DNA of 32,000 nt from Candidatus Iainarchaeum sp. (GTDB taxonomy: Archaea; Iainarchaeota; Iainarchaeia; Iainarchaeales; CSSED10-239). Each line of letters starts with the position of its first letter. The first letter of the stretch is position 1. The notes under the pieces were generated by a model. It saw nothing but the letters and a program-made list of their open reading frames with translations. It was not told where the DNA came from and ran no database searches. A program made the position numbers and the translations under genes. The stretch is from NCBI GenBank assembly GCA_037441475.1, contig JBBISB010000001.1:637465-669464 (forward strand). The letters run 5' to 3'. Below are positions 5,495-21,161 of the stretch, in pieces.

Positions 5495-5761
5495 ATGGTA
5501 TATATGGATAATATCTTATATTTGAGTGCATTTACACACATCATCTGGATTGTACTCTTAATAGTAATTTCAGTTGTTATATACTCATGGACAAAAAGCA
5601 AAATATCAAACAACACAATGTCTGTTGTAATAACAATTATTATTGTATATTTATTATTTGTACAATACCCTCATTTCGTGTGGTTTGCAGTTGTTGGTGC
5701 TTTAATAATATCAATAAGTAAACCTGACTTTAGTAAATTAATGAAGGATTTTAGAATTTAA
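5495..5761 (+). CDS. small integral membrane protein (3 predicted TM helices)
   Basis: An ORF of hydrophobic helices in the same orientation as rpl15e. No family recognised. Confidence 0.4.
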   Translation: MVYMDNILYLSAFTHIIWIVLLIVISVVIYSWTKSKISNNTMSVVITIIIVYLLFVQYPHFVWFAVVGALIISISKPDFSKLMKDFRI

Positions 5762-5776
5762 GAAAGTGATTATAGT

Positions 5777-6082
5777 TTGGAAGCAATATTGACTAGGATT
5801 TTTTTACTTGTTATTATTATTCTATGTATCAATTATAATTTTTTAATTTTTATTCCTTTTATTTTAGGTATATACTTTTTATTTGAGAAAAGTTGGTGGA
5901 ATCTTTTGGTGTTAGGAGGTTATGTTGTAATTTTCTTTCTAATGGCAAGTGATGTTCCTTTCCTTCTTTATTCAACAATTATTCTTTTATTAATAGTTAT
6001 TATTACAAATTACTTTTCTGGAAGTAAAGAGAAAGAAGATACTGGAGATATTGATTTCAGTAAACTTTTTGGAAACATGTAA
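5777..6082 (+). CDS. small integral membrane protein with an acidic C-terminal tail
   Basis: TTG start in the ORF track. Three hydrophobic segments followed by SGSKEKEDTGDIDF. No family recognised. Confidence 0.4.
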   Translation: MEAILTRIFLLVIIILCINYNFLIFIPFILGIYFLFEKSWWNLLVLGGYVVIFFLMASDVPFLLYSTIILLLIVIITNYFSGSKEKEDTGDIDFSKLFGNM

Positions 6083-6111
6083 GTCTTTTAAAAAAAGAGG
6101 GTTTTTAAAAA

Positions 6112-6513
6112 ATGCACAAGATAGTTAAGTCATCTGTAAGGGCTGTTAAAAAAGAAGTTAAATCTTTTTTATTAAAACCAAAACCCTCTCTTCATTCAAC
6201 AAACAGAGGAAAAGATAATCCTTCTTTGTTTAATAGAGGAAAAGAATTTGTTGTTGATATCTTAAAGTTTAAAACTAAAAGACCATCAAAAGAAAGCTCT
6301 ATGGAGTTTATAAAAAAAAATAAAAGTTTCTTTTCTAAAAGTAATTTAAAGGCTCTTCTAGCTTACATCTTCTCTGATTTTTCTATGGACCAGATAGAGG
6401 ACATGATACGATATATCTTTGGGAATCTATCAGAAGAGCAAAGAGATAATGTTTTACTTGACATTATCGAACATATAAACGAGAAAGAGTATGGGTTTTT
6501 ATTAAAGGATTAA
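6112..6513 (+). CDS. hypothetical protein (basic N-terminus, helical C-terminus)
   Basis: ORF preceded by AGAGGG. Contains an in-frame A9 run (6312-6320). No family recognised. Confidence 0.4.
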   Translation: MHKIVKSSVRAVKKEVKSFLLKPKPSLHSTNRGKDNPSLFNRGKEFVVDILKFKTKRPSKESSMEFIKKNKSFFSKSNLKALLAYIFSDFSMDQIEDMIRYIFGNLSEEQRDNVLLDIIEHINEKEYGFLLKD

Positions 6514-6520
6514 TAAAAAC

Positions 6521-7102
6521 TTATTTTAGTTTATTTAAAATATTTCTATTTTCTTCTAAAATATCTTTCATAATTTTTGTAAGTCCATTCATCTGTGCTT
6601 TAAGTTCTCTTACTTGCTCTTCAATTTCAGAAAGTTGTTTTGAATCAATTGTAGGTGCTATTGGTTTTTCTTTTTTTAAATTTTTAATAATATCTTCCTG
6701 ATTAATTTTATTAACATCACTTGTAGTTTTCTTAAGCTCTGTTTCTAAAAAATCTTCATATTTACTTTTGTTTTTTTCTATAAAATCTGTTTTAGTTGTT
6801 TTTTTAGAAATTACTTCTTTTTCAGGTTCTTCTTCATCAAGTTCTTCTTGAGAAATCTCTTCCTCTTCTTGAGAAGCATCTTCTTTTACAGAAGATAAAT
6901 TTTCTTCCTTTTCTTTTTTAACAGAAGTTAAAGGTTCTTCTTTCTTTTCTGTTTTTCTTGATGCTAAAACAGCATTATAATTATTTTCAATATCTTCTTC
7001 ATCAACACCTATGTCTTTAAGTGTCGAATAAATAGTTTCTTTATCTATATTAGCATCCATTAGTTCAATAATGGTGTCTTGAATTAATTTTTTTTCAACC
7101 AT
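6521..7102 (-). CDS. hypothetical acidic coiled-coil protein with a small N-terminal helical (UBA-like?) domain
   Basis: N-terminal IIELMDANIDKETIYSTLKDIGVDEEDIENNY, then a long E/K/S-rich linker, then a C-terminal heptad-like segment SEIEEQVRELKAQMNGLTKIMKDILEEN. Confidence 0.45.
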   Translation of the reverse strand: MVEKKLIQDTIIELMDANIDKETIYSTLKDIGVDEEDIENNYNAVLASRKTEKKEEPLTSVKKEKEENLSSVKEDASQEEEEISQEELDEEEPEKEVISKKTTKTDFIEKNKSKYEDFLETELKKTTSDVNKINQEDIIKNLKKEKPIAPTIDSKQLSEIEEQVRELKAQMNGLTKIMKDILEENRNILNKLK

Positions 7103-7211: not shown

Positions 7212-8648
7212 ATGATATCCTTAAACACATGGAACACTTTATATGAAGGCAAGTATGCTGATCAAGAGCTTAGTGTTCTCTATAAAGACGATATCTTTGT
7301 TTCTTTCTTAAGGTTAAGAGATAAAACAAATGTCTTAATACAGGTATATAAGGTTTTTGTTGTTAAAGGAGAGATTGAAACTTTTGCATCCACTCTTCCA
7401 TACCCTGCTATTGTTTATCATAAGCATGTGGATATTGGTTCTTCAAATAACTTTAAGTATCTTTTATTACATACAGACACAGAGTATATAGATGTAAATA
7501 CTCTTTCATATCATGTAGATAAAAAAATAACTGAACTAAATAAAATGATTGGTTCTGTAATCTCTGTTGTTAAGTCATATAACATTAAGTTAATTTCTTT
7601 AAAACTTGCAGAAAAAAGAGATAATGATTATTTTTTTTCAGATCCTGAAATCTTAAAATCACTTTCAAACATGCCTCTTTCCTTAGACTTTAAATCTTCA
7701 ACACCTTTAGATAAGTTAATCCTAGGTAAAAAGAAAGACGTAACAGTTACAACCTCTCTTTCAAACCTAAAGAATGTAACCGTCTATGGTCCTCTTCTTG
7801 ATGAAAGGTTGTTTGTTTCAAAGTTAATATGTGAAAATTATTTACTTTCTTCAAAAACAGTTATTGTCTTTGATACTTTAAACAACTATGTTAGTTTAGG
7901 GTATCCTCAACAAAACTCCAAGGTCTTAGAGGACTTTGAACTTAATATGGATGCTTTTGGTTTTCCAGTTAAAAAAATAAATTACTTAGATATTAATATT
8001 CCTCTAAGCAAAATACCTTTTGATGCTTTTGTAAATCTTTTTTCTTTTAAGGATGTTTCTTTAAAGATAATAAACCAGGTTTACAGTAAAGATATAATCA
8101 CTGTTAAAGATCTTATTTCAAGTGTTAAAAAAATAAAAGTTGATCAAGAGATTAATGATTTTGAAAAACAAAGAGTAATTTCAAAATTAATGGTCTTAGA
8201 TAAAAAATATGGTTCTTTCTTTGGAAAATCAGATATTTCTTTACTTTTTAAACAAAGATATCAAAATATTGGTTCTGTAAAGATAATTACCTTAAACCCT
8301 AAAGACCCTATTTACCCTTTCTTTATAAAAAACCTTGTTGAAGAGATTTCTTTGTCTGTTAAAGATGAGGTTTTATTGGTTTTTCCTGAGTTAAGTGCTG
8401 TTTTCAATAATCTTTATTTAGGAAGCAGTATAATGCAGACAATAAAAGATAATTCCACCTTAAACTCCTTAATAACAAGCAAGTCTGAAAATGACTTTAG
8501 GGAGGGTGTTTTTCCAGGTGTAAAGATACATGCCATAAAGGATAATGATGCTGTTATCTATTACCCTAACAGAGACCCTATAAGGCTTCTTTTAAGACCT
8601 ACTTTTACATCTAGTGTTATTAATTATAAGCTTAAGGACAAGTTTTAG
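7212..8648 (+). CDS. hypothetical protein, 478 aa (possibly a degenerate HerA/DUF87-like P-loop fold)
   Basis: Long ORF with a TATA-like AT box upstream. No intact Walker A. See the finding on the degenerate motif layout. Confidence 0.55.
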   Translation: MISLNTWNTLYEGKYADQELSVLYKDDIFVSFLRLRDKTNVLIQVYKVFVVKGEIETFASTLPYPAIVYHKHVDIGSSNNFKYLLLHTDTEYIDVNTLSYHVDKKITELNKMIGSVISVVKSYNIKLISLKLAEKRDNDYFFSDPEILKSLSNMPLSLDFKSSTPLDKLILGKKKDVTVTTSLSNLKNVTVYGPLLDERLFVSKLICENYLLSSKTVIVFDTLNNYVSLGYPQQNSKVLEDFELNMDAFGFPVKKINYLDINIPLSKIPFDAFVNLFSFKDVSLKIINQVYSKDIITVKDLISSVKKIKVDQEINDFEKQRVISKLMVLDKKYGSFFGKSDISLLFKQRYQNIGSVKIITLNPKDPIYPFFIKNLVEEISLSVKDEVLLVFPELSAVFNNLYLGSSIMQTIKDNSTLNSLITSKSENDFREGVFPGVKIHAIKDNDAVIYYPNRDPIRLLLRPTFTSSVINYKLKDKF

Positions 8649-12156: not shown

Positions 12157-12822
12157 ATGGATAGATTAATAACAATCATTGACCAACCAAACTGGAAACT
12201 ACTATTATTTGATTTAGTTAAATCAAATGATTTTGATATTTGGAACATTGATATAGTATCCTTAACAGAGCTTTATTTAAAAAAAATAATTCAGCTTAAA
12301 GAGGGTAATTTAATGGTTCCTGCAAATGCTCTTTTAGCTGCCAGTATTCTACTTAAAATAAAAACATATACCTTAAAGCTTACAAGCATAGAACCTGAAG
12401 AAGAATTAATAATACCAAAAGAAGAGGATCTTTTGCTTAATGCTTTAAATCTTGATAACCAAATAAGGAATAAAGAAGGACAAGTTTCTTTAGATGACTT
12501 AATAGAAGCCATTGATTCTATAATGAATAGACCAACTAAAAAGAACTTAGAAAAAATGATTAAGGAAAAAGCTGAAATTGAATTTATTCTTCCAAGGACT
12601 ATTGAAGACATTAACTACAGGATAGATGTTCTTTATACCTCTATTAAAAAACAAGCTGATGATGAAGGTTGTTTAACTTTTAAAAAACTTTTTTCAAATA
12701 ACATTAATAACTTTGATGTTGTAAACAATCTTTTTATACCTCTTTTATTTCTTCATCAAGAAGAAAAAATAAATGTTTGGCAAGATGACTTTTTTTCTGA
12801 AATTTTTATAAAAGTTATTTAA
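12157..12822 (+). CDS. scpA: segregation and condensation protein A (kleisin ScpA)
   Basis: N-terminal ScpA signature: NWKLLLFDLVKSNDFDIWNIDIVSLTELYLKKI. Length and helical C-terminus fit the family. Confidence 0.8.
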   Translation: MDRLITIIDQPNWKLLLFDLVKSNDFDIWNIDIVSLTELYLKKIIQLKEGNLMVPANALLAASILLKIKTYTLKLTSIEPEEELIIPKEEDLLLNALNLDNQIRNKEGQVSLDDLIEAIDSIMNRPTKKNLEKMIKEKAEIEFILPRTIEDINYRIDVLYTSIKKQADDEGCLTFKKLFSNNINNFDVVNNLFIPLLFLHQEEKINVWQDDFFSEIFIKVI

Positions 12823-12880: not shown

Positions 12881-12923
12881 TTAACACATATTTATAAATA
12901 TTATGTATGTATATTTTATCTAT
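12881..12923 (+). promoter_or_regulatory. candidate archaeal promoter block (TATA core TTTATAAATA at 12891-12900), duplicated at 14793-14835
   Basis: The 43-nt block ttaacacatatttataaatattatgtatgtatattttatctat is 40/43 identical to the block upstream of the second adhesin gene. It lies 57 nt upstream of the ATG at 12957. Confidence 0.5.
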
Positions 12924-12956: not shown

Positions 12957-14741
12957 ATGAAAAAAATAAAAAAACTTATTTCTAAAAATAAAGATGTGAA
13001 AAAAGATATGAATCATAATAAAAAAGCTCAAGTCTCAATTGAGATGATTGTTATTTTAGGAATATTGATTTTAGGTGCTGTTATTTTAGCAACCTTTCTA
13101 GGTCTTTTTGGTGAAAAAACAACCCAGTTAACAGATCTTAATGAAGTTGCTGAAGGTACTTTTGATGGTTTTTTAAATAATTTAGGAAATTCTTCAGATG
13201 GAAGTTTCCCACAGCAGCCAGGAGGTACAGGAATAAACTATACTTTAACATTAATTCCAAACAATGCATCTTTTGGAACAGCAAACACCTCTGGTAGTTA
13301 TCAGTCAGGTTCTTTAGTAACTGTTACAGCAACTCCTAGTGCAGGTTATTCTTTTGTAAACTGGACAATCACTTCAACAGGTGTTGTTGCAAGTACAAAT
13401 GCAAGTTATTCTTTTACAATGCCAACAAACAATTTAGGTTTAACAGCTAATTTTTCTTCAAAAGCTCCTACCTTATATACCTTATCATTAGTTGAAAATC
13501 CAAATGAACCTAATGCAACATTGATTGGTGCTGGAAGTTATGCCGCAGGAACAGTAGTTTCAGTTTCCATAACCACTACAGGTTCAATATTTTTTAATAA
13601 TTGGACAAACCAAGGCGGAACTGTAGTAAGCTCTGTTGCAAATTTTAATTATACAATGCCTGCAAGTAATACAACATTAACAGCAAACTTTTCTACTGCT
13701 GCAACTATGGTTTCTTATTTCACTTCTACATGGGATACAACAAAAACAAGCCCAGGTTCTTCTAATAGTAATCAAATAAAATTACCATTAGTTCCAACAG
13801 GGACATATAACTTCGTTGTTTATTGGGGAGATAGAACTACAAACACTATAACCACTTGGAATTCTTCAAATGCAACCCATACATACTCTTCACCTGGAGA
13901 GTACACAATATATATCTCAGGTGTAATAAATGGATTTTCATTTAATAATTCTGGAGATAAATTAAAATTATTACGAATAGGTTCTTGGGGTCAATTAAAC
14001 TTAGGAAATACAGGTGGTTATTTCTATGGTGCACAAAATCTAGAAATAGATGCAGCAGATTCTCTTGATTTAAGAGGAACAACAAATTTATCTTCTATGT
14101 TTAGAGATTGTTCTTCAATTACAACTATTCCTTCATTAAATAAATGGGATGTTACATATGTAACTGATATGAGTTCAATGTTTTCATATGCAACTTCATT
14201 TAATGCTCCTTTAAATACTTGGGATGTTAGAAATGTAACAAATATGTCTGGGATGTTTAATGGAGCTACTTCTTTTAATCAATATATAAATGACTGGGAC
14301 ACTTCAAATGTTAGTGATATGCAATACATGTTTTTAGGTGCAGAAAAATTTAACCAGCCCTTAAACCAATGGAATGTTTCAAATGTTAGAAATATGGCTG
14401 GAATGTTTGCAAGTGCACAGAATTTTGATCAACCTTTAAACAGTTGGGATGTTTCGAAGGTAACGCTTATGGAGGGTATGTTTGGTAATGCGTATTCTTT
14501 TGATCAGCCTTTAGATAGATGGGATATTTCAAACGTTATTTTTATGGATTATTTTTTTGGAGATATAACTTTATCCACTAAAAATTATGATGCAATATTA
14601 AATTCTTGGGCTAATCAAAAATTAAAACAAAATGTTGTTTTTGATGCAGGGTATAGTAAGTATAGTTCTTCTGGTGAAGCTGCAAGAGATGTATTAATTA
14701 AAAACTATAATTGGACTATTAAAGATGGCGGTCTTCAGTAA
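12957..14741 (+). CDS. class III signal peptide (type IV pilin-like) surface protein with 2 InlB-B-repeat-like domains, a PKD-like module and DUF285/BspA-like 26-residue repeats
   Basis: ...NHNKKA|QVSIEMIVILGILILGAVILATFL is an archaeal prepilin-type signal. An alternative start is ATG 13008 (MNHNKKAQ). Repeats at 13239-13454 and 13476-13691 (...GYSFVNWT...LTANF). PKD-like module WGDRTTN...THTYSSPGEYTIYISG. About 7 repeats of W[DN]V.NVT.M..MF..A.SFNQPL. Confidence 0.85.
   Translation: MKKIKKLISKNKDVKKDMNHNKKAQVSIEMIVILGILILGAVILATFLGLFGEKTTQLTDLNEVAEGTFDGFLNNLGNSSDGSFPQQPGGTGINYTLTLIPNNASFGTANTSGSYQSGSLVTVTATPSAGYSFVNWTITSTGVVASTNASYSFTMPTNNLGLTANFSSKAPTLYTLSLVENPNEPNATLIGAGSYAAGTVVSVSITTTGSIFFNNWTNQGGTVVSSVANFNYTMPASNTTLTANFSTAATMVSYFTSTWDTTKTSPGSSNSNQIKLPLVPTGTYNFVVYWGDRTTNTITTWNSSNATHTYSSPGEYTIYISGVINGFSFNNSGDKLKLLRIGSWGQLNLGNTGGYFYGAQNLEIDAADSLDLRGTTNLSSMFRDCSSITTIPSLNKWDVTYVTDMSSMFSYATSFNAPLNTWDVRNVTNMSGMFNGATSFNQYINDWDTSNVSDMQYMFLGAEKFNQPLNQWNVSNVRNMAGMFASAQNFDQPLNSWDVSKVTLMEGMFGNAYSFDQPLDRWDISNVIFMDYFFGDITLSTKNYDAILNSWANQKLKQNVVFDAGYSKYSSSGEAARDVLIKNYNWTIKDGGLQ
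13256..13416 (+). repeat. near-identical block A shared by the two adhesin paralogs (partner 15177-15337)
   Basis: 157/161 nt identical by hand alignment, while the sequence immediately upstream of the block is unalignable. Confidence 0.85.
13845..13961 (+). repeat. perfectly identical block B shared by the two adhesin paralogs (partner 16750-16866)
   Basis: 117/117 nt identical. The extended segment 13821-13970 vs 16726-16875 has only 4 mismatches, and the flanks are clearly more diverged. Confidence 0.9.
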
Positions 14742-14744
14742 TCC

Positions 14745-14752
14745 TTTTTTTT
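14745..14752 (+). terminator. oligo-T tract (T8) immediately after the first adhesin gene
   Basis: taatccTTTTTTTTaaaa starts 4 nt after the stop. Oligo-T tracts are the usual archaeal termination signal. Followed by a fresh promoter block. Confidence 0.4.
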
Positions 14753-14760
14753 AAAAATAA

Positions 14761-14792
14761 TTAGTAATTATCTTATTTAGTAATTATCTTAT
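14761..14792. repeat. perfect 16-nt tandem duplication (ttagtaattatcttat x2)
   Basis: Read directly from the sequence. Sits immediately 5' of the duplicated promoter block. Confidence 0.9.
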
Positions 14793-14835
14793 TTAACACA
14801 TGTTTATAAATATTATGTATTAATATTTTATCTAT
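14793..14835 (+). promoter_or_regulatory. candidate archaeal promoter block (TATA core TTTATAAATA at 14803-14812), copy of 12881-12923
   Basis: 40/43 identity to the upstream copy. The 15-mer atgtttataaatatt (14800-14814) also recurs exactly at 24901-24915, upstream of the GT2 gene. Confidence 0.5.
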
Positions 14836-14874
14836 ATACATCCTTATGTTATAAAATTATAAGCGTCTTTAATT

Positions 14875-17673
14875 ATGAAGAAAATAAAAAATAAATTAGT
14901 TATTAAAAAAAAAGAGAAGAAAGATATGAATAAAAATAAAAAAGCCCAGGTCTCAATAGAGATGATAATTATTTTATCTGTTTTAATTTTAGGGGCAGTA
15001 GTATTTGCATCTTTACTTCTAGGCTTTTTTAATAAAAGTGTTGATAGAAACACAGATGTTGATGATGTAGCAAGTAATACTGTTAATAGCTTCATTAAAG
15101 ATCTTGTAAATTATAATGATAGTAATAATCAAACCACTCCAAGTCCAACACCAATATTTTATAATCTAGTATTAACTCCAAACAATCCTTCTTTTGGAAC
15201 AGCAAACACCTCTGGTAGTTATCAGTCAGGGTCTTTAGTAACTGTTACAGCAACTCCTAGTGCAGGTTATTCTTTTGTAAACTGGACAATCACTTCAACA
15301 GGTGTGGTTGCAAGTACAAATGCAAGTTATTCTTTTAATATGCCTTCAAGTAATTTAAGCTTATCAGCAAACTTTGTTTTAGCCCCTCCTACAAACTGTA
15401 CTTTAACCTTAAACAGAAATCCTGTTTCAGGTGGAACAGTTTCAGGCGCAGGGACTTTTCCTTGTAATTCTTCTGTGACAGCAACAGCAACTCCTGCAAT
15501 TAACTATGCTTTCACTAATTGGACAACAACAAGTGGGACTGTTACAACAAACCATTATACTTTTAATTTAAATTCTTCTCAAACATTAACAGCAAACTTT
15601 ACACCTTCTGCTTATAATCTTAATTTAACAAAATCAGGAAGTGGAACTGGAACTGTTACAAGTTCTCCTGTTGGTATATCTTGTGGTTCAAGTTGTACTA
15701 CAGCATCTTATGCTTTTCCTGTTAATCAACTTGTTACTTTAACAGCAACTGTTGTTAGTGGACATACTTTTGCAGGTTGGTCAGGGGATTGTTCAGGCAC
15801 AAATCAAACCTGTACTGTTACAATGTCTCAAGCAAGAAATGTAACTGCAACTTTTAATCTTCCAAACATATATTTATTATCTGTATCTAAAGAAAATCCG
15901 CTTGGTGGCTGGGTTGTAAGTTCTGGACCTACCCTAGGTATTAGTTGTGGTTCTGATTGTTCTGAAATTTATTCTTTAGGAGTTAATGTTTCTTTAACAA
16001 CAACAAATCTTCTTCCAGGTTATACTTTTGTTGAATGGAGAGATGCTTGTACAGGATCTGCAGCTATCTGTTCATTTACTATGGATGGTCCAAAATATGT
16101 AACTGCTGTTTTTGCTCCTATTAATCATACTTTAAATGTAAATAAAGTAAATCCTTCTTACGGTCTTGTACAGACTGTTTCTCCATCTACAGGAATTATC
16201 TGTGGTCTTGATTGCTCTGAAAGTTATTTTTATGGAACTAATGTTACTTTAAATGCTTCTGGTTTAAGTGGGGGAACTTTTGCAAGATGGTCTGGTGCTG
16301 GTTGTTCAGGCACAGATAACTGTATAGTTACAATGGATGCTGCAAAAACTGTAACTGCAACTTTTAATGCTCCTGTTTCAAATTATTTATTAACTGTTAA
16401 TAAGAATGGTACTGGTTCAGGAAGAGTTGTAAGTTCTACAATAGGTATTGATTGTGGAAGTACATGTTCTGCAAATTATGCTCAAGGAACAGTTATTAGT
16501 TTAACAGCTAATCCTGATGCAGGAAATACTTTTACTGGATGGTTAGGAGATTGTTCTGGAACTGGTCAATGTTTTGTGACTATGGATTCTGCAAAAAATG
16601 TTACTGCTGTATTTAATGCTACTAATTCATTCATTTCTAAATGGGTTACAAATAATTCTGAAGAAAGTAATTCTAATCAAATAAAATTACCGCTTGTTTC
16701 TTCTGGAACTTATAAATTTACAGTATATTGGGGAGATGGAACTACAAATACTATAACCACTTGGAATTCTTCAAATGCAACCCATACATACTCTTCACCT
16801 GGAGAGTACACAATATATATCTCAGGTGTAATAAATGGATTTTCATTTAATAATTCTGGAGATAAACTTAAATTAACTCAAATTTCAAAGTGGGGACCAT
16901 TAAGACTTGGAAATACAGGTTCTTATTTCTATGGTGCACAAAACCTAACAATAACTGCAACAGATGTTTTAGATTTAACTGGTACTACAAATTTATCTTT
17001 AATGTTTAGTAACTGTTCTTCAATAACAACAATTCCTTCTATTAATAGTTGGAATGTTTCAAATGTTACAAATATGGGATTTATGTTTTATTATGCAAGT
17101 CAGTTTAATAGTCCTTTAAATAATTGGAATGTTTCAAATGTAACGAATATGCAGAGTATGTTTTATGGTGCAACTAATTTCAACCAACCAATCGGAGATT
17201 GGAATGTTTCAAATGTAACGAATATGAGTAATATGTTTTCTTATGCAACTGCTTTCAACCAACCAATCGGTTCTTGGAATGTTTCAAAAGTAACTACAAT
17301 GCAAAGAATGTTTTTTCGTGCTTCTAATTTTAATAGACCTGTAGGAGATTGGAATGTTTCAAGTGTGAATAATATGGAAGGTATGTTTTTGAATGCATCT
17401 AGCTTTAATCAACCTCTTGGTAATTGGAATCCAATAAATGTAAATAATTTTTCAATGTTTATTTCTAATACCAGGTGTTGTATTTTATCTACTGCAAATT
17501 ATGATAATTTATTAATTGGATGGTCTTCTAAAAATTTGCAAAGAAATGTTAGATTAGATGTAGGTACAAGATATAGCTCAGCAGGTGAAACTGCAAGACA
17601 ATCAATTATAACTAACTATAATTGGTATATTCATGATAATGGTAAGCAGTGGTTAAAAATATTTATAAATTAA
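14875..17673 (+). CDS. class III signal peptide (type IV pilin-like) giant surface protein with 6 InlB-B-repeat-like domains (4 cysteine-containing), a PKD-like module and DUF285/BspA-like repeats
   Basis: ...NKNKKA|QVSIEMIIILSVLILGAVVFASLLL. Alternative start ATG 14926. Repeats span 15160-16617; the last four each contain GIxCGxxC...GW.G.C.G...C.VTM....VTA.F. Then WGDGTTN...THTYSSPGEYTIYISG and about 8 WNVSNVTNM..MF..A..FNQPI repeats. Confidence 0.85.
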   Translation: MKKIKNKLVIKKKEKKDMNKNKKAQVSIEMIIILSVLILGAVVFASLLLGFFNKSVDRNTDVDDVASNTVNSFIKDLVNYNDSNNQTTPSPTPIFYNLVLTPNNPSFGTANTSGSYQSGSLVTVTATPSAGYSFVNWTITSTGVVASTNASYSFNMPSSNLSLSANFVLAPPTNCTLTLNRNPVSGGTVSGAGTFPCNSSVTATATPAINYAFTNWTTTSGTVTTNHYTFNLNSSQTLTANFTPSAYNLNLTKSGSGTGTVTSSPVGISCGSSCTTASYAFPVNQLVTLTATVVSGHTFAGWSGDCSGTNQTCTVTMSQARNVTATFNLPNIYLLSVSKENPLGGWVVSSGPTLGISCGSDCSEIYSLGVNVSLTTTNLLPGYTFVEWRDACTGSAAICSFTMDGPKYVTAVFAPINHTLNVNKVNPSYGLVQTVSPSTGIICGLDCSESYFYGTNVTLNASGLSGGTFARWSGAGCSGTDNCIVTMDAAKTVTATFNAPVSNYLLTVNKNGTGSGRVVSSTIGIDCGSTCSANYAQGTVISLTANPDAGNTFTGWLGDCSGTGQCFVTMDSAKNVTAVFNATNSFISKWVTNNSEESNSNQIKLPLVSSGTYKFTVYWGDGTTNTITTWNSSNATHTYSSPGEYTIYISGVINGFSFNNSGDKLKLTQISKWGPLRLGNTGSYFYGAQNLTITATDVLDLTGTTNLSLMFSNCSSITTIPSINSWNVSNVTNMGFMFYYASQFNSPLNNWNVSNVTNMQSMFYGATNFNQPIGDWNVSNVTNMSNMFSYATAFNQPIGSWNVSKVTTMQRMFFRASNFNRPVGDWNVSSVNNMEGMFLNASSFNQPLGNWNPINVNNFSMFISNTRCCILSTANYDNLLIGWSSKNLQRNVRLDVGTRYSSAGETARQSIITNYNWYIHDNGKQWLKIFIN

Positions 17674-17722
17674 ACTATCTTAATATATATAGATATTTTT
17701 TTTAAAAAAAAGATGATTATAT

Positions 17723-18196
17723 ATGATAAACAAAAAAGGACAAGTCTCTATTGAGTTAATTATTTTAGTTGGTATGCTTATTATAGGTGCTGTTGTTTTA
17801 TCTGTTACTTTGATTAGTTCATATAAAAAAAATATAGAAACAACAGATGATACTGCAAAAAAACAAAGTAACCTTATAGATAATTTTGTAGAAGATCTTG
17901 ATGATGTTCAATCCGGAAACTCTGGAGGACAGATAAATCAATTTAGTGTTACTCTTACTAATCCACGTCCAATTAGTTATCCTCCTGGAAATGTATCTTT
18001 TAATATTTCATATGATTATAATGTAGGTCCAGTTACTTGTAATTGGGATTTAAGTTCTATGACATATGGAGAGCAAAATTTCCAAGGTTGTTCTACTTTA
18101 CGTAATTTAGGTTTAGGAGAATATACTGCAGATTACACAGTTACAGATGGTTCTAGCACTAGAACAGGGACTGTGTCCTTTAGAGTTAATAATTAA
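17723..18196 (+). CDS. small type IV pilin-like protein (class III signal peptide) with a PKD/Ig-like C-terminal domain
   Basis: MINKKG|QVSIELIILVGMLIIGAVVLSVTLI has a short canonical leader. The C-terminus ...CNWDL...LGLGEYTADYTVTDGSSTRTGTVSFRV resembles a PKD fold. A TTTATAAAT core lies 53 nt upstream. Confidence 0.8.
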   Translation: MINKKGQVSIELIILVGMLIIGAVVLSVTLISSYKKNIETTDDTAKKQSNLIDNFVEDLDDVQSGNSGGQINQFSVTLTNPRPISYPPGNVSFNISYDYNVGPVTCNWDLSSMTYGEQNFQGCSTLRNLGLGEYTADYTVTDGSSTRTGTVSFRVNN

Positions 18197-18210: not shown

Positions 18211-18675
18211 ATGGACCAAACAAGTAGTGATTACCTTAAGCAAGCAATAGAGGCAATCCTCTTTTTATCCCCAAAATCTATTTCTTTATCAAAGATATAT
18301 GCCTCTTTTCCAAACATCCCAAAGAACATAATAGATATCCAGATAGATGACTTGATAAACAGTTATCAAAAAAGACAAACATCTTTAGAAATTGTAAAAG
18401 ATAACAATAAACTTGAAATTGTTGTAAAACCAGAGTTTCATTCCTTTAACATCTTTGCAACAGGAACAACTCTCTCAAAATCAGAGCTTAAGACCTTAGC
18501 CTTCATCTCTTTAAATGCCCCAGTAGAGCAAGCAAAGATAAGTAAGAAAAGACCTTTTGAAGATCTAAAGATATTAAAAGACCTAGATCTAATATCTATT
18601 GAAAAGAAGGGACGAAAGAATATCTTACAAACAACCAAAAAATTTTCTCTTCTCTTTAAAAATAAGAAAAAGTAA
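18211..18675 (+). CDS. scpB: segregation and condensation protein B (ScpB)
   Basis: N-terminal signature LKQAIEAILFLSPKSISLSKI (family consensus 'EAlLFas.epls'). The size fits a single or double wHTH protein. Starts 14 nt after the pilin-like gene stop. Confidence 0.8.
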   Translation: MDQTSSDYLKQAIEAILFLSPKSISLSKIYASFPNIPKNIIDIQIDDLINSYQKRQTSLEIVKDNNKLEIVVKPEFHSFNIFATGTTLSKSELKTLAFISLNAPVEQAKISKKRPFEDLKILKDLDLISIEKKGRKNILQTTKKFSLLFKNKKK

Positions 18676-18713: not shown

Positions 18714-21161
18714 ATGAATAAAACTATTTATGTGGTGAAAAATATTATGAAAAATAAATATATATTATTAATTTTACTTTTAGTTCTTTTAGTACCAAAC
18801 ATCTTTGCATTGGTACCAAATGCAAATATGAAGATATTTGCTGTTGCTGGAGATAAAGGAGCACAAGATGCAACCCTTAACATAAAGATTGTTCCTGGTG
18901 CCGGAAAGATATTCTCTTCAATAGATGAATCAATAGTAGGTTCATCCACCCAAGAGTCTTTTAAAAATGCAATTTCTGTTGCAAATAAAAATATTGGAAA
19001 CAACATACGTTCAAAGTATGATTTTACAGTTGATATTGAATCAAGTGCATACAGTATAGATGGGCCATCAGCAGGAGGAGCAATGGCTCTTTTAATAATT
19101 TCAATGTTTAAAGATACTCCAGTAAGTAATAAAGTAAGTATGACAGGAACAATTACAGCTGATGGTTATATAGGGGATGTTGGTGGAGTTTATCAAAAAA
19201 CAAAAAAAGCAGCTGAAGTAGGTATAAAGCTTTTCTTTGTTCCACAAGGTAACAGAACACAAGTTATTAATGAAGGTGGAAATATTCAGCAAATTGACCT
19301 TATTGAGTATGCTTACAAGGAATGGGGACTTAAGATAATAGAAGTTTCAACCATGGATGAAATCTTAGCTTACGCTTTTAGAGACATTGATTCAATAGAT
19401 ATAAATACTACTCAAAAAGAAAAAGTTGATGATTTTATTTATACCTCTATAAGTTATTCAAAAGCAGTTGAACCTTTTAAAGATGTTACTTATAATTACA
19501 TAAAACAAACTGATGAAAAGTTAGTTAATGTTAAAAAACACTTAGCTTCTTCAAGTATAAAAGATACTGAGGTTTTACAAAATCTATTATCTACCATAAA
19601 CTATTCTGAAGAACTTTTAAATGTTGCAAACAAATATTATCAATACAATTATTTTTATTCTGCAGCAAACAATTCATTTTTAGCATATGTAAATGTTATT
19701 ACTGTAGATGAGATTATAACAAACCCATCCATCTTAGCAGACTCTTCAATAATCTTTAACTTAAGGATTAAAGAGCTTGAAGAAAAGATAACCTTAACTG
19801 AAAATAGATCCTACAACTGTTCTCTTGAAAACCTAGAGTGGTGTGTTGGTGCAAGACAAAGAGTTACATGGGCAAGAGATAAACTTGAAAAAATAAGTGT
19901 GACTTCCACTTCTAATAATTTTACAAAAATACAAGATTATGCTTATGCTGTTGCATGGACAGATATTGCAAATAGTTTTTTAGACCTCTCAATTACAAAA
20001 ACAAATATTTATTTTGTAGAGTCAGGATATTTTAAAAAACAAGCACAAGATAATATAATCTCTGTTGAAAATCAATTGATATTAGTTGCACCAGAAATAG
20101 CAACTAGTGAAGACTTAAGAAGAAGACTTGATGCTGCTAAAAGAAACTATGATAGAGAATGGTATGTGACCTCTCTTTATGATTCAGCAACTGCTTTAGC
20201 TGTTATAAAAACACAAGAGGAAAATAAAAATACAATTTCAACAACAGCATTTACTGCAAAGTATGATCTTTTAGCCTCAAAGTTAAGATCTCAAGCAGCA
20301 ATGAATAATGAAAATAATGTTTGGTCAAAGACTTTCTTAGACCATGCCATCTATTATTATAATGCATATAATGAAAATAAAATGAAAGATGAAGAAAAAG
20401 CAAAATCAAATATGAATGTTTCAAACTCAATCTTAAATTTTTCAAACTACTTATATGATGTTGAGACTTTAGTTTTAGATTATTACCTTAATACAGATAT
20501 TGATGCTTTAATAGTTGATATTACAAGTTCAACAGAAGGTTCAGTTATAATTGTTAATAAAAATAATGAACCTATAAAACAAGTTTCTTCACAGAATGTA
20601 TATGTTTACAGTAAAGAAAGAAAAGACTTTAATCTTTATTTAATTGTTGCAGCTTTGTTCTTAATGATTGTAGCTATTATTGTTGAGGTTGAAAGGTTTA
20701 AAAGATACCATTCAAAGGAAGGAATAATAAAGCAAATAGGTTACTTAGATGAAAAGCTTCTTGATGGAAAGATTAGTTCTTTTACCTATAAGGAAATGAG
20801 AGAGAAGTATCTTTTAGAGCTTGAAAAAATAAAATCTAAAGAAGCATCTAAAAAGAAAGAGTTAAAGAAAACAGAAGATGTTTTAACCTCTGCAGATGAA
20901 CTTGAAAAAAGAGTAATTGATAAACAAATAGAGGAACTTGAAAGAAGAAGAAAAGAAATTTCTCTTAGAGGAAAAAGTGAATCTATTAAGAGTGTTAAAG
21001 AGATTGTTTCAAACATCAAGCCTACAGTTAAGGAAGATGTTAAAAAACAAGAAACTTTTAAAAAACCTTCTTTAAAAAAAGAAACTTCTTCTAAAAAAGA
21101 AGAAATTAAAAAAAAAGAAACTAAAAAGAAAAAGGATCTTTCAATTAAGAAAGGTCTTTAA
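18714..21161 (+). CDS. membrane-anchored Lon-type (S16) serine protease domain protein without an AAA+ module
   Basis: N-terminal hydrophobic signal/anchor KYILLILLLVLLVPNIFA (likely start ATG 18747). Lon proteolytic core with the catalytic Ser in SIDGPSAGGAMAL and the catalytic Lys in GGVYQKTKKAAEVG. About 430 aa helical region, a second TM (LYLIVAALFLMIVAIIVEV), then a K/E-rich tail. Confidence 0.8.
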   Translation: MNKTIYVVKNIMKNKYILLILLLVLLVPNIFALVPNANMKIFAVAGDKGAQDATLNIKIVPGAGKIFSSIDESIVGSSTQESFKNAISVANKNIGNNIRSKYDFTVDIESSAYSIDGPSAGGAMALLIISMFKDTPVSNKVSMTGTITADGYIGDVGGVYQKTKKAAEVGIKLFFVPQGNRTQVINEGGNIQQIDLIEYAYKEWGLKIIEVSTMDEILAYAFRDIDSIDINTTQKEKVDDFIYTSISYSKAVEPFKDVTYNYIKQTDEKLVNVKKHLASSSIKDTEVLQNLLSTINYSEELLNVANKYYQYNYFYSAANNSFLAYVNVITVDEIITNPSILADSSIIFNLRIKELEEKITLTENRSYNCSLENLEWCVGARQRVTWARDKLEKISVTSTSNNFTKIQDYAYAVAWTDIANSFLDLSITKTNIYFVESGYFKKQAQDNIISVENQLILVAPEIATSEDLRRRLDAAKRNYDREWYVTSLYDSATALAVIKTQEENKNTISTTAFTAKYDLLASKLRSQAAMNNENNVWSKTFLDHAIYYYNAYNENKMKDEEKAKSNMNVSNSILNFSNYLYDVETLVLDYYLNTDIDALIVDITSSTEGSVIIVNKNNEPIKQVSSQNVYVYSKERKDFNLYLIVAALFLMIVAIIVEVERFKRYHSKEGIIKQIGYLDEKLLDGKISSFTYKEMREKYLLELEKIKSKEASKKKELKKTEDVLTSADELEKRVIDKQIEELERRRKEISLRGKSESIKSVKEIVSNIKPTVKEDVKKQETFKKPSLKKETSSKKEEIKKKETKKKKDLSIKKGL

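What the first reader, a model, noticed from the sequence alone, without database searches (positions are those of the whole stretch)
12957..18196. Pilin-anchored adhesins: archaeal prepilin-type N-termini fused to bacterial-style InlB-B-repeat / PKD / DUF285 (BspA-like) modules
All three ORFs begin with a basic leader ending K-K-[A/G], followed by Q-V-S-I-E and about 20 hydrophobic residues. That is the archaeal class III signal peptide / DUF361-type 'QxSxE' prepilin motif, cleaved before Q by FlaK/PibD/EppA-type peptidases. The 594-aa and 932-aa proteins carry, in place of a small pilin head, 2 and 6 InlB-B-repeat-like units of 70-84 aa. These are followed by a PKD-like module (WGDG...H.Y..G.Y) and 7-8 copies of the 26-residue repeat W[ND]VSNVTNM..MF..A..FNQP. 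That repeat is characteristic of DUF285/BspA-like surface proteins of Mycoplasma, Listeria and Bacteroidetes. The third gene is a short pilin-like protein with a PKD-like head, possibly the fibre or partner subunit. No assembly ATPase, platform protein or prepilin peptidase is in the window. In a small-genome archaeon, such large N-terminally anchored or pilus-displayed adhesins are obvious candidates for attachment to a host or partner cell. I do not recognise this domain combination as a described system.
Basis: partly seen in the sequence, partly recalled or inferred. Interest (0 to 1): 0.85.

Follow-up and report, generated by a model that had tools for sequence, protein, structure and literature searches.

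The report
Archaeal pilin-anchored adhesin gene cassette
Three neighbouring genes in a tiny-genome (DPANN) archaeon encode surface proteins with a pilus-subunit-type N-terminal anchor fused to a stalk and a bacterial-type repeat head, probably for sticking to other cells; the design principle is known, but this fast-evolving archaeal version has not been described.

Summary
ORFs A (12957-14741, 594 aa), B (14875-17673, 932 aa) and C (17723-18196, 157 aa) all carry K-K-[A/G]|Q-V-S-I-E followed by a hydrophobic helix. A and B add 2 and 6 InlB-type B-repeats (Flg_new_2), a PKD-like beta-sandwich and a DUF285/PARCEL solenoid with a 25-aa period (not 26).

The N-terminus is a roughly 60-residue module of the EppA/Epd (DUF361, PF04021) prepilin class. 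In DPANN archaea it occurs alone (73-85 aa), with small heads, or fused to many different heads. Related members lie inside complete Epd-type pilus loci with an ATPase, two platform genes and a Peptidase_A24.

The organism is a sister of Ca. Forterrea (Iainarchaeota). The cassette sits between scpA and scpB in at least five genomes and evolves 4-5 times faster at non-synonymous sites than its flanks, with domain and repeat-number changes.

Most likely these are modular pilins, meaning prepilin-anchored adhesins. Pilus machinery in this genome could not be checked.

Novelty is moderate. Class III signals on non-pilin domains are known in archaea. Bacterial prepilin+DUF285 and prepilin+B-repeat architectures are already catalogued. 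The archaeal tripartite version and its variable cassette are not described. Caveat: the public scaffold has a 100-N gap inside gene B.

The parts
12883..12908 (+). Promoter-like element AACACATATTTATAAATATTATGTAT upstream of A (TATA-like TTTATAAA at 12891-12898)
   Evidence: Read directly. A near-identical copy lies upstream of B, and blastn shows the A/B duplication includes about 77 nt upstream. Promoter function is inferred.
12957..14741 (+). Gene A, 594 aa: class III module + 2 B-repeats + PKD-like sandwich + DUF285 solenoid + C-terminal cap
13008..13196 (+). A: prepilin-type N-terminal module (short leader MNHNKKA, predicted cleavage before Q25 at 13029, hydrophobic helix, amphipathic helix ending FDGFLNNL)
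   Evidence: Motif. PF04021 E=0.0045, or 0.0016 on the isolated module. AF2 helices at residues 21-47 and 61-77. Family alignment A1.
13233..13700 (+). A: two Flg_new_2 (divergent InlB B-repeat) domains, the predicted stalk
   Evidence: Pfam PF18998, 2 stretches, E=3e-26. AF2 confidence is low here.
13713..13985 (+). A: PKD-like beta-sandwich (F.STW...WGD....H.Y..G.Y)
   Evidence: AF2 pLDDT >96 with beta strands over residues 255-343. PKD_4 is sub-threshold. The homologous region of P0002 passes the PKD thresholds.
13989..14738 (+). A: DUF285/PARCEL solenoid (about 8 units of 25 aa) plus alpha/beta C-terminal cap
   Evidence: PF03382 1e-56 and TIGR02167. Repeat spacing. AF2 pLDDT 96-99. Foldseek best matches are LRR proteins, all weak.
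14795..14820 (+). Promoter-like element AACACATGTTTATAAATATTATGTAT upstream of B (TATA-like at 14803-14810)
   Evidence: Duplicate of the element before A.
14875..17673 (+). Gene B, 932 aa: class III module + 6 B-repeats (four with 2 Cys pairs each) + PKD-like sandwich + DUF285 solenoid + cap; tandem paralog of A
   Evidence: A versus B: 56% identity over the N-terminal 250 aa, and heads about 63%.
15157..16623 (+). B: six Flg_new_2 domains; the copy number is uncertain
   Evidence: Pfam gives 6 stretches. DNA repeats are spaced 249-258 nt. The public scaffold has a 100-N gap corresponding to window ~16324-16436.
16627..17670 (+). B: PKD-like sandwich, DUF285 solenoid (75-nt DNA period) and C-terminal cap
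17723..18196 (+). Gene C, 157 aa: the same class III module (MINKKG|QVSIE, cleavage before Q7 at 17741) with a small beta head
   Evidence: 41 representatives found by exhaustive HMMER. The single-sequence AF2 model shows a helix over residues 4-58 then beta strands, at low confidence.
12157..12822 (+). scpA, conserved left border of the cassette slot
   Evidence: PF02616. 81-82% identical in Forterrea and L003, with the cassette in the same slot.
18211..18675 (+). scpB, conserved right border, starting 14 nt after C
   Evidence: PF04079. Synteny.

Best explanation
A, B and C are modular pilins of the archaeal EppA/Epd (DUF361, PF04021) class.

Architecture:
- Each begins with a self-sufficient, head-less, Flp/Epd-like pilin module. 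This consists of a basic leader, a predicted cleavage site K-[A/G]|Q, Glu at +5, and an N-terminal helix of roughly 50 residues.
- In A and B the module carries a stalk of 2 or 6 Ig-like InlB-type B-repeats.
- The stalk is capped by a PKD-like sandwich and a DUF285/PARCEL leucine-rich-repeat-like solenoid, which is the binding head.
- In C the module carries only a small beta head.

Inferred mechanism:
1. The K-rich leader stays in the cytoplasm.
2. An EppA-type prepilin peptidase cuts before Gln.
3. The hydrophobic helix holds the protein in the membrane.
4. From there it is fed as a minor subunit, probably at the tip, into an Epd-type type IV filament, or it stays as a helix-anchored stalk.
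5. Either way the head is presented outside the cell for adhesion to a partner cell or surface.

The cassette is a fast-diversifying surface-recognition locus. It changes by tandem duplication that includes the promoter, by swapping of domains, and by changes in repeat number.

Shown: the domain architecture, family membership of the N-terminal module, co-occurrence of related members with pilus machinery in other DPANN genomes, conserved position, and accelerated evolution.

Inferred: cleavage, filament incorporation, and adhesive function.
For: Motif and architecture:
- The motif and hydrophobic helix are present in all three proteins, with 3 matches against 0 expected.
- Q+1 and E+5 are invariant across 40 module sequences.
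- 35 of 40 module sequences hit PF04021.
- The module profile's best PDB match is an archaeal type IV pilin N-terminal helix, 6w8u, E=0.012.

Family structure:
- The module occurs alone in 73-85-aa proteins, in roughly 150-aa proteins, and in 260-960-aa proteins. The larger ones carry DUF285, Flg_new_2+Lcl_C, RCC1, CHB_HEX_C/Fn3_assoc or Big_7/PKD heads.
- This mirrors the size classes of M. maripaludis EppA substrates, which have Q+1 and E+5 and are scattered over at least 4 loci (PMC3875500).

Link to pilus machinery:
- Relative P0169 sits in a locus with T2SSE, 2x T2SSF, PF04021 pilins and Peptidase_A24+Arc_PepC.
- About 16 of roughly 62 archaeal motif-bearing loci from GTDB representatives have such machinery within 8 kb.
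- The Iainarchaeota locus L037 was confirmed by Pfam.
- The motif's taxonomic range (DPANN, Thermococci, Methanococci) matches the reported range of TFF 'System 1'.

Anchoring and head:
- There is no C-terminal anchor.
- The head is a confident beta-sandwich plus solenoid with LRR-like fold matches.

Recurrence and evolution:
- The class III + DUF285 fusion recurs in L003/P0022, Forterrea L019 and L010, each with different middle domains.
- Cassette dN is 0.07-0.08, against 0.017-0.022 in the flanks, at similar dS. The closest relative also has 9 DUF285 units where B has 6.

Precedent:
- Analogous bacterial prepilin+DUF285 and prepilin+B-repeat proteins are catalogued.
Against: - No prepilin peptidase, ATPase or platform gene is present in the window, in 10 kb upstream, or within 10 kb of Forterrea's separate four-pilin operon. 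The rest of the genome could not be read.
- PF04021 scores of A, B and C are each below Pfam's gathering threshold.
- The pilin module has no beta-sheet head, so classification as a pilin rests on the helix alone.
- AF2 confidence is low for the linker and stalk of A, and for C as a whole.
- Bulky cargo of 500-850 residues may be hard to accommodate in a filament other than at the tip.
- In M. maripaludis, five of six extra DUF361 proteins are dispensable for piliation. Carrying the signal therefore does not prove filament incorporation.
- Overall dN/dS is below 1 (0.19-0.30). The data show relaxed or partly diversifying selection, not demonstrated positive selection.
- No ligand or host is known.
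Confidence: 0.5

Rival explanations
1. Processed but not polymerised. The class III signal is cut by a prepilin peptidase, but the proteins stay as single membrane-tethered stalks or short pseudopilus/bindosome-like assemblies. The 2- or 6-domain stalk lifts the DUF285 head through the S-layer.
For: - Archaeal class III signals on non-pilin proteins are widespread. Roughly 1,355 genomes carry such binding proteins without a detected TFF locus, and 1,019 of those still encode a peptidase.
- No machinery lies near the cassette.
- Large heads are sterically awkward for a filament.
- The two different stalk lengths fit a spacer role.
Against: - The N-terminal module equals that of head-less 73-85-aa proteins, which look like fibre subunits.
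- Members with the same motif sit in full pilus loci.
- The invariant Glu+5 is a filament-assembly feature in bacterial type IV pilins (general knowledge).
Confidence: 0.28
2. Ordinary uncleaved signal-anchor. The N-terminus is just a type II membrane anchor, and its resemblance to prepilins is vestigial.
For: - Individual PF04021 scores are below threshold.
- Machinery in this genome is not shown.
- The apparent leader of A and B is unusually long (24 aa) if the first ATG is used.
Against: - K-[GA]-Q-x-S-x-E is strictly conserved across proteins whose remaining sequence has diverged to 25-50% identity. A simple anchor would not preserve Q+1 and E+5.
- 35 of 40 family members match PF04021.
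- Forterrea keeps at least 7 prepilin-like genes.
Confidence: 0.12
3. Not adhesins. The heads capture nutrients (bindosome-type scavenging), or the proteins are structural cell-envelope components.
For: The 2026 TFF survey proposes substrate scavenging as the main role of SPIII fusion proteins. The function of DUF285 is experimentally unknown.
Against: - There is no solute-binding-protein domain and no adjacent ABC transporter.
- Ig-like stalks with an LRR-like solenoid are typical of protein- or glycan-binding adhesins (general knowledge).
- Rapid diversification and repeat-number variation fit recognition of variable partner surfaces better than uptake of a fixed nutrient.
Confidence: 0.1

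Closest known systems
Methanococcus maripaludis Epd pilins / EppA substrates (DUF361 = Pfam PF04021, UPF0333)
   Same: - Short basic leader ending in G/A, with Gln at +1, Glu at +5 and a hydrophobic helix.
- Size classes of about 70, about 150 and over 200 aa.
- Genes scattered away from the ATPase and platform genes.
- The same Pfam family is hit.
- Related DPANN loci have the two-platform-gene 'System 1' layout.
   Different: - Here the module is fused to 500-850 residues of recognisable adhesin-type domains (Flg_new_2, PKD-like, DUF285).
- The genes form a hypervariable cassette at scpA/scpB.
- Processing and piliation have not been tested.
Bacterial modular type IV pilins (S. sanguinis PilB/PilC; InterPro architectures IPR012902-IPR005046 and IPR012902-IPR013378 in PMC8179133 Dataset S1)
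   Same: - A functional module is grafted by a linker onto a pilin N-terminal module.
- The very same cargo families (DUF285, InlB-type B-repeat) are found on bacterial prepilins.
- PilB is a proven adhesin.
   Different: - The N-terminal module differs: archaeal PF04021/EppA type, not the bacterial N-methylation motif IPR012902.
- The pilin module here lacks a globular beta-sheet.
- B-repeats and DUF285 are combined in one protein here, which the bacterial list does not contain.
- The survey did not cover archaea.
Sulfolobales bindosome sugar-binding proteins and other SPIII 'binding proteins'
   Same: A class III signal peptide and hydrophobic helix precede a non-pilin functional domain, and the genes lie away from the TFF machinery.
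   Different: Those carry solute-binding domains next to ABC transporters. Here the cargo is stalk domains plus an LRR-like solenoid, with no transporter nearby.
PARCEL/DUF285 surface proteins of Mollicutes, Listeria and Flavobacteria ('BspA family' in NCBI naming)
   Same: The head shows 40-55% identity to bacterial homologs over the PKD-like module and the DUF285 repeats. The repeats are tandem with a 25-26-aa period.
   Different: - The anchoring differs: a lipobox in Mycoplasma and a T9SS C-terminal domain (PF18962) in Flavobacteria, against an N-terminal prepilin module here.
- In 2010 PARCEL was reported absent from archaeal genomes.
- True BspA repeats (LRR_5) were not detected.

Membership tests
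Pfam PF04021 Class_IIIsignal (DUF361/UPF0333; EppA-type archaeal prepilins) | Basic leader ending with Gly/Ala at -1 (Lys at -2), Gln at +1, Glu at +5 | tested here: met
   KKA|QVSIE (A, B) and KKG|QVSIE (C). Q and E are invariant in 40 family members. These features are as defined for M. maripaludis in PMC3875500.
Pfam PF04021 Class_IIIsignal (DUF361/UPF0333; EppA-type archaeal prepilins) | About 20 hydrophobic residues after the cleavage site, forming the N-terminal helix | tested here: met
   Sequence. AF2 helix over residues 21-47 in A and 4-58 in C (moderate to low confidence).
Pfam PF04021 Class_IIIsignal (DUF361/UPF0333; EppA-type archaeal prepilins) | HMM score above Pfam's gathering threshold (23.7 bits) | tested here: inconclusive
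   A 17.3, B 14.8 and C 19.5 bits, with E 0.0045, 0.029 and 0.0009. At family level, 35 of 40 members hit at E<=0.01, best 3.6e-7.
Pfam PF04021 Class_IIIsignal (DUF361/UPF0333; EppA-type archaeal prepilins) | Cleavage by an EppA/Peptidase_A24 prepilin peptidase encoded in the same genome | not testable with these tools
   Only about 42 kb of the 671 kb contig could be read, and no peptidase is in it. Related Iainarchaeota and DPANN loci do encode Peptidase_A24+Arc_PepC next to pilins with the same motif.
Type IV filament subunit (pilin) / modular pilin sensu PMC8179133 | Pilin module (alpha-1 helix, usually packed on a beta-sheet head) followed by a linker and a non-pilin functional module | tested here: inconclusive
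   The helix, linker and grafted modules are present. The module has no beta-sheet head and resembles head-less Flp/Epd pilins.
Type IV filament subunit (pilin) / modular pilin sensu PMC8179133 | Incorporation into a filament built by a T2SSE ATPase and T2SSF platform | not testable with these tools
   Needs the complete genome and an experiment. Indirect support: about 16 of roughly 62 archaeal loci with the motif carry such genes within 8 kb.
DUF285 / PARCEL (PF03382, TIGR02167) | HMM above threshold, with tandem amphipathic repeats of about 25-26 residues | tested here: met
   PF03382 at 189.9 and 192.8 bits against a cut-off of 25. TIGR02167 at 75.6 and 101.8 against 30. The period is 25 aa / 75 nt.
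BspA-type leucine-rich repeat (Pfam LRR_5), as implied by the name 'BspA family' | Match to the BspA-type LRR model | tested here: not met
   No LRR_5 hit appeared in the Pfam scan at E<=0.1. Only the fold is LRR-like, with weak Foldseek matches to TLR2, ribonuclease inhibitor and SspH1 at E>=6e-3. 'BspA family' is NCBI's name for homologs.
Flg_new_2 / InlB B-repeat (PF18998, TIGR02543) | HMM above threshold, tandem units of 70-85 aa | tested here: met
   A has 2 stretches at 91.6 bits and B has 6 stretches at 207.5 bits, against a cut-off of 23.6. DNA spacing is 249-258 nt.
PKD domain (PF00801/PF18911) | HMM above threshold and a beta-sandwich fold | tested here: inconclusive
   A and B score about 16 bits against 27. 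The homologous segment of P0002 scores 30-31 bits, above threshold. AF2 gives a confident beta-sandwich.
Bindosome-type SPIII substrate-binding proteins | Solute-binding domain and linkage to an ABC transporter | tested here: not met
   There is no SBP domain and no ABC transporter among the neighbours.

The most novel reading that the evidence does not exclude
The scpA/scpB cassette is the partner-recognition locus of Forterrea-clade DPANN archaea. A horizontally shared bacterial-type PARCEL head has been grafted onto an archaeal Epd-type pilin. It is displayed at pilus tips on stalks of tunable length, and its rapid domain and repeat turnover sets or tracks host specificity. That would make it an archaeal counterpart of pilus-mediated episymbiosis in CPR bacteria.
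Probability: 0.22. Interest if true: 0.72.

Novelty: new variant of a known kind. Interest (0 to 1): 0.5.

Why it matters
How DPANN archaea recognise and attach to partner cells is largely unknown, and Iainarchaeota (Diapherotrites) have no cultured host system. This locus gives concrete, testable candidates:
- **A defined attachment module.** The family has a clear processing motif and interchangeable heads.
- **An easy place to find it.** It sits at a conserved genomic position across genomes.
- **Variation worth tracking.** It evolves several-fold faster than its neighbours and varies in repeat number between populations.

It also extends the modular-pilin idea from bacteria to archaea. The same PARCEL/DUF285 head is mounted on whichever surface-anchoring device a lineage uses: a lipobox, a T9SS tail, a bacterial prepilin or an archaeal prepilin. 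The PARCEL family was reported absent from archaea in 2010.

Finally, it flags an annotation problem. Gene B is broken by a scaffold gap and is called only as a fragment in the public record.

Tried and rejected
2. **Structure of C.** Only a single-sequence model was possible under the tool's input limits. It has pLDDT 47 and was not used for fold search.
3. **Pilus machinery in the source genome.**
   - The source genome is not among the GTDB representatives scanned.
   - 10 kb upstream of the window contains none.
   - The TFF preprint has no held supplements.
   - The Forterrea paper does not mention pili.
4. **Profile search with the module alignment.** It returned only 12 short proteins and none from the source contig.
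5. **478-aa DUF87-like protein (7212-8648) as a pilus ATPase.** Rejected. The only hit is a weak HerA-type match, with no T2SSE hit.
6. **Small ORFs 5495-7102 as pilins.** Rejected. They have no class III motif.
7. **'SPLIATVLL' N-termini of P0002 and P0079 as a second pilin type on DUF285 proteins.** No Pfam support was obtained, so this is left as an unverified resemblance.
8. **Positive selection on the cassette.** Not shown. dN/dS is 0.19-0.30, which is elevated but below 1.
9. **Mobile element or viral origin of the cassette.** Not supported. There are no integrase or transposase genes, and the same slot with conserved flanks is used in five genomes.


Full report
**Observation.** The three ORFs are real and lie at the stated coordinates: A 12957-14741 (594 aa), B 14875-17673 (932 aa) and C 17723-18196 (157 aa), all on the + strand.
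- All three carry K-K-[A/G]-Q-V-S-I-E followed by about 22 hydrophobic residues.
- A degenerate DNA pattern for this motif occurs three times in the window, against 0.00 expected in 100 shuffles.
- Pfam and NCBIfam give strong hits. Flg_new_2 (divergent InlB B-repeat) gives 2 stretches in A (3e-26) and 6 in B (2e-62). DUF285 gives 1e-56 and 2e-57. TIGR02167 (PARCEL) and TIGR02543 also hit.
- The DUF285 period is 25 aa / 75 nt, not 26. There are six clear units plus about two degenerate ones.
- Class_IIIsignal (PF04021, the former DUF361) matches the extreme N-terminus of all three proteins but below the gathering score. PKD is also sub-threshold.
- A and B are tandem paralogs. Their duplication includes a TATA-containing upstream element.
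- Both have an in-frame Met at codon 18 that would give a 7-residue leader like C's.

**Organism and data quality.** Neighbouring genes include TFIIB, L15e, Trm5/TYW2, fibrillarin/Nop upstream, and ScpA/ScpB. Together with 28% GC, they identify a small-genome archaeon.
- The window comes from NCBI MAG GCA_964526055.1, contig CAZGHU010000001.1 (671,531 bp).
- tblastn shows a close relationship to 'Candidatus Forterrea multitransposorum' (CP045477.1, complete genome, 839,632 bp; a Diapherotrite/Iainarchaeote). Identities are TFIIB 97%, ScpA 82%, ScpB 86% and TrxR 78%.
- The public scaffold has a 100-N gap inside gene B, exactly at a B-repeat DNA repeat. As a result, B is annotated there only as a 363-aa fragment.
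- The window version is a continuous ORF, but the number of B-repeats is assembly-dependent.

**What the N-terminus is.** An exhaustive HMMER scan with C found 41 cluster representatives. Thirty-five of them share an N-terminal module of about 60 residues. It consists of a short basic leader, [GA]|Q-[VI]-S-x-E, a hydrophobic stretch, then an amphipathic helix ending [VI]D[DN]F[VIL]xD[LM].
- In an alignment of 40 modules, Q+1 and E+5 are invariant.
- 35 of 40 match PF04021 at E<=0.01, best 3.6e-7.
- The profile's best PDB hit is the N-terminal helix of an archaeal type IV pilin (6w8u, E=0.012; weak but specific).
- The module occurs alone in 73-85-aa proteins, with small beta heads (about 140-167 aa, like C), and on large multidomain proteins.
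- Heads found on it include DUF285, Flg_new_2 x4-8 with or without Lcl_C, an RCC1 propeller, CHB_HEX_C/Fn3_assoc x3 and Big_7/PKD.
- This is the pattern described for M. maripaludis EppA substrates: a 5-13-aa leader, Gln+1 and Glu+5. That organism has a 74-aa head-less major pilin, 130-156-aa minor pilins and larger paralogs. The genes are scattered over at least four loci away from the ATPase and platform genes (PMC3875500).

**Link to pilus machinery.** A short relative (P0169, named UPF0333) lies in a low-GC locus that encodes a complete set of pilus genes:
- a T2SSE ATPase;
- two T2SSF platform proteins;
- four PF04021 pilins;
- a Peptidase_A24+Arc_PepC prepilin peptidase.

A DNA-motif scan of 185,579 species-representative genomes found 66 stretches. 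About 62 are archaeal. They come from Iain-, Woese-, Nano-, Micr- and Aenigm-archaeota, Thermococci and Methanocaldococcus. This matches the reported range of archaeal TFF 'System 1' (bioRxiv 10.64898/2026.04.22.720090).

In about 16 of these 8-kb loci, phmmer detects a T2SSE, T2SSF or peptidase gene. The Iainarchaeota locus L037 was confirmed by Pfam. It has T2SSE, 2x T2SSF, 56-59-aa PF04021 pilins, Peptidase_A24+Arc_PepC, and a 165-aa pilin beginning KSKKG|QISIE.

For the window's own genome I could read only the window plus 10 kb upstream, and no machinery is there. Forterrea has a separate operon of four prepilin-like genes, also without machinery within 10 kb. Whether this clade has the peptidase, ATPase and platform is therefore the main open point.

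**The head.** AF2 with a 58-sequence alignment predicts residues 250-594 of A at pLDDT 96-99. The fold is a beta-sandwich (255-343), a repeat solenoid, and an alpha/beta cap.
- The N-terminal helix (21-47) is moderately confident. The stalk is poorly predicted because the alignment is shallow there.
- Foldseek against PDB returns only weak matches (E>=6e-3), all of them leucine-rich-repeat solenoids.
- No solved homolog exists by sequence.
- The sandwich is homologous to a segment of P0002 that passes the PKD thresholds.
- Head homologs number more than 2,700 and span DPANN, Asgard, CPR and Flavobacteria. In Flavobacteria they carry a T9SS tail instead.
- In 2010 the PARCEL/DUF285 motif was reported absent from archaeal genomes (PMC2996958).

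**The cassette.** In the window, Forterrea (L019), L003, L026/L058 and L053 the cassette sits between scpA and scpB. In the more distant L010 (ScpA 48% identical) a 509-aa class III + CHB_HEX_C/Fn3 + DUF285 protein and a 79-aa head-less module protein lie just upstream of an intact scpA-scpB pair.
- Contents differ between genomes: 594/932/157 aa here, against 127/730-798/258-262 aa in Forterrea and L003.
- Every cassette protein keeps the same N-terminal module.
- Against the closest relative (L009), dS is similar across genes (0.20-0.36). dN is 0.070-0.081 for B and C, against 0.017-0.022 for scpB, the Lon_C protein and Trm5. That gives dN/dS of 0.19-0.30 against 0.05-0.09.
- The B ortholog in L009 has nine clear DUF285 units rather than six.

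**Interpretation.** The best reading (confidence about 0.5) is that A, B and C are modular pilins of the Epd/EppA class.
- The head-less pilin module is cleaved before Gln.
- It then either enters an Epd-type filament as a minor or tip subunit, or tethers the protein in the membrane.
- This presents a stalk of Ig-like B-repeats and a PKD+DUF285 binding head for adhesion.

Rivals:
- Processed but non-polymerised stalk adhesins (0.28).
- An uncleaved signal anchor (0.12). This is disfavoured by the invariant Q+1/E+5 in otherwise rapidly diverging proteins.
- A non-adhesive scavenging or structural role (0.10). This is disfavoured by the lack of solute-binding domains or transporters.

**Comparison with what is known.**
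- Class III signal peptides on non-pilin proteins are established in archaea, for example the Sulfolobales bindosome. A 2026 survey reports 4,364 SPIII binding proteins and mentions adhesin-like SPIII proteins in TFF loci.
- Modular pilins are established in bacteria, where S. sanguinis PilB is a proven adhesin. That paper's Dataset S1 lists IPR012902+DUF285 (about 22 proteins) and IPR012902+InlB-type repeats (about 16 proteins). It lists none with both and covers no archaea.
- No paper in the library links BspA with DPANN, and the Forterrea genome paper does not mention these genes.

**Verdict.** This is a new variant of a known kind, not a new category. The new elements are:
- the archaeal PF04021-type module;
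- the tripartite stalk+PKD+DUF285 cargo;
- the conserved but fast-evolving position of the cassette next to scpA/scpB.

Interest is moderate at 0.5. The locus provides well-defined candidates for DPANN cell-cell attachment, but processing, display and binding are all still inferred.

Noticed in passing
window 18714-21161 (+): An 815-aa protein with only the Lon_C (S16) protease domain and no AAA+ module. It has an N-terminal signal/TM segment, a C-terminal TM segment and a long K/E-rich tail, plus a weak SepM-family hit. It always follows scpB next to the cassette (window, L003, L009, L010, L053, L058). It could be an extracytoplasmic processing protease; any link to the cassette is unknown.
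   Followed up: partly
window 12157-12822 and 18211-18675; L010 10368-11511: scpA and scpB are split by the adhesin cassette in five Forterrea-clade genomes. In the more distant L010 the cassette lies just upstream of an intact scpA-scpB pair. This is an old, unexplained linkage between a surface-protein cassette and chromosome-segregation genes. C ends only 14 nt before scpB, so co-transcription is likely.
   Followed up: partly
window ~16324-16436 (L001 8614-8713): The public scaffold of GCA_964526055.1 has a 100-N gap inside gene B at a B-repeat DNA repeat, with near-duplicate flanks. In the public gene calls B appears only as a 363-aa C-terminal fragment, plus an 83-aa reverse ORF (14844-15095) that is probably spurious.
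   Followed up: yes
window 24401-27109: A cluster of glycosylation-type genes: GtrA-like (24401-24841, -), GT2 (24924-25664, +) and an Alg9/PMT_2-like membrane glycosyltransferase (25661-27109, -). A and B carry 21 and 40 N-x-S/T sequons, against 13.6+/-3.2 and 26+/-4.1 in shuffles. Much of the excess comes from the conserved W[ND]VSNVTNM repeat core.
   Followed up: partly
L042 319-2070 / L082 9531-11282 (Forterrea genome): A separate operon of four consecutive prepilin-like genes (157, 169, 100 and 166 aa; leaders ending KKA|Q, KKG|Q, NKG|Y, EKG|L). It is flanked by ABCE1, RFC, PCNA and LonB, with no pilus machinery within 10 kb.
   Followed up: yes
window 7212-8648 (+): A 478-aa protein with only a weak DUF87/HerA-type P-loop hit (E=4e-4) and no NCBIfam match. 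It is conserved (81%) and syntenic in L003. It is flanked by small, very hydrophobic ORFs (5495-6082) and an acidic coiled-coil-like ORF (6521-7102). Function unknown.
   Followed up: partly
window 15682-16572 (B residues 270-566): Four of B's six B-repeats carry two conserved Cys pairs each (GIxCGxxC ... GDCSG...C), which suggests disulfide-stabilised stalk domains. A's two repeats and B's first two lack them.
   Followed up: no
P0002 and P0079: Other DPANN DUF285 proteins (Nanoarchaeia, Ainarchaeum) begin with '...SPLIATVLL...', which resembles the other archaeal pilin/archaellin-type N-terminus. No Pfam hit confirmed it. If real, the DUF285 head has been grafted onto two different archaeal prepilin types.
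   Followed up: partly
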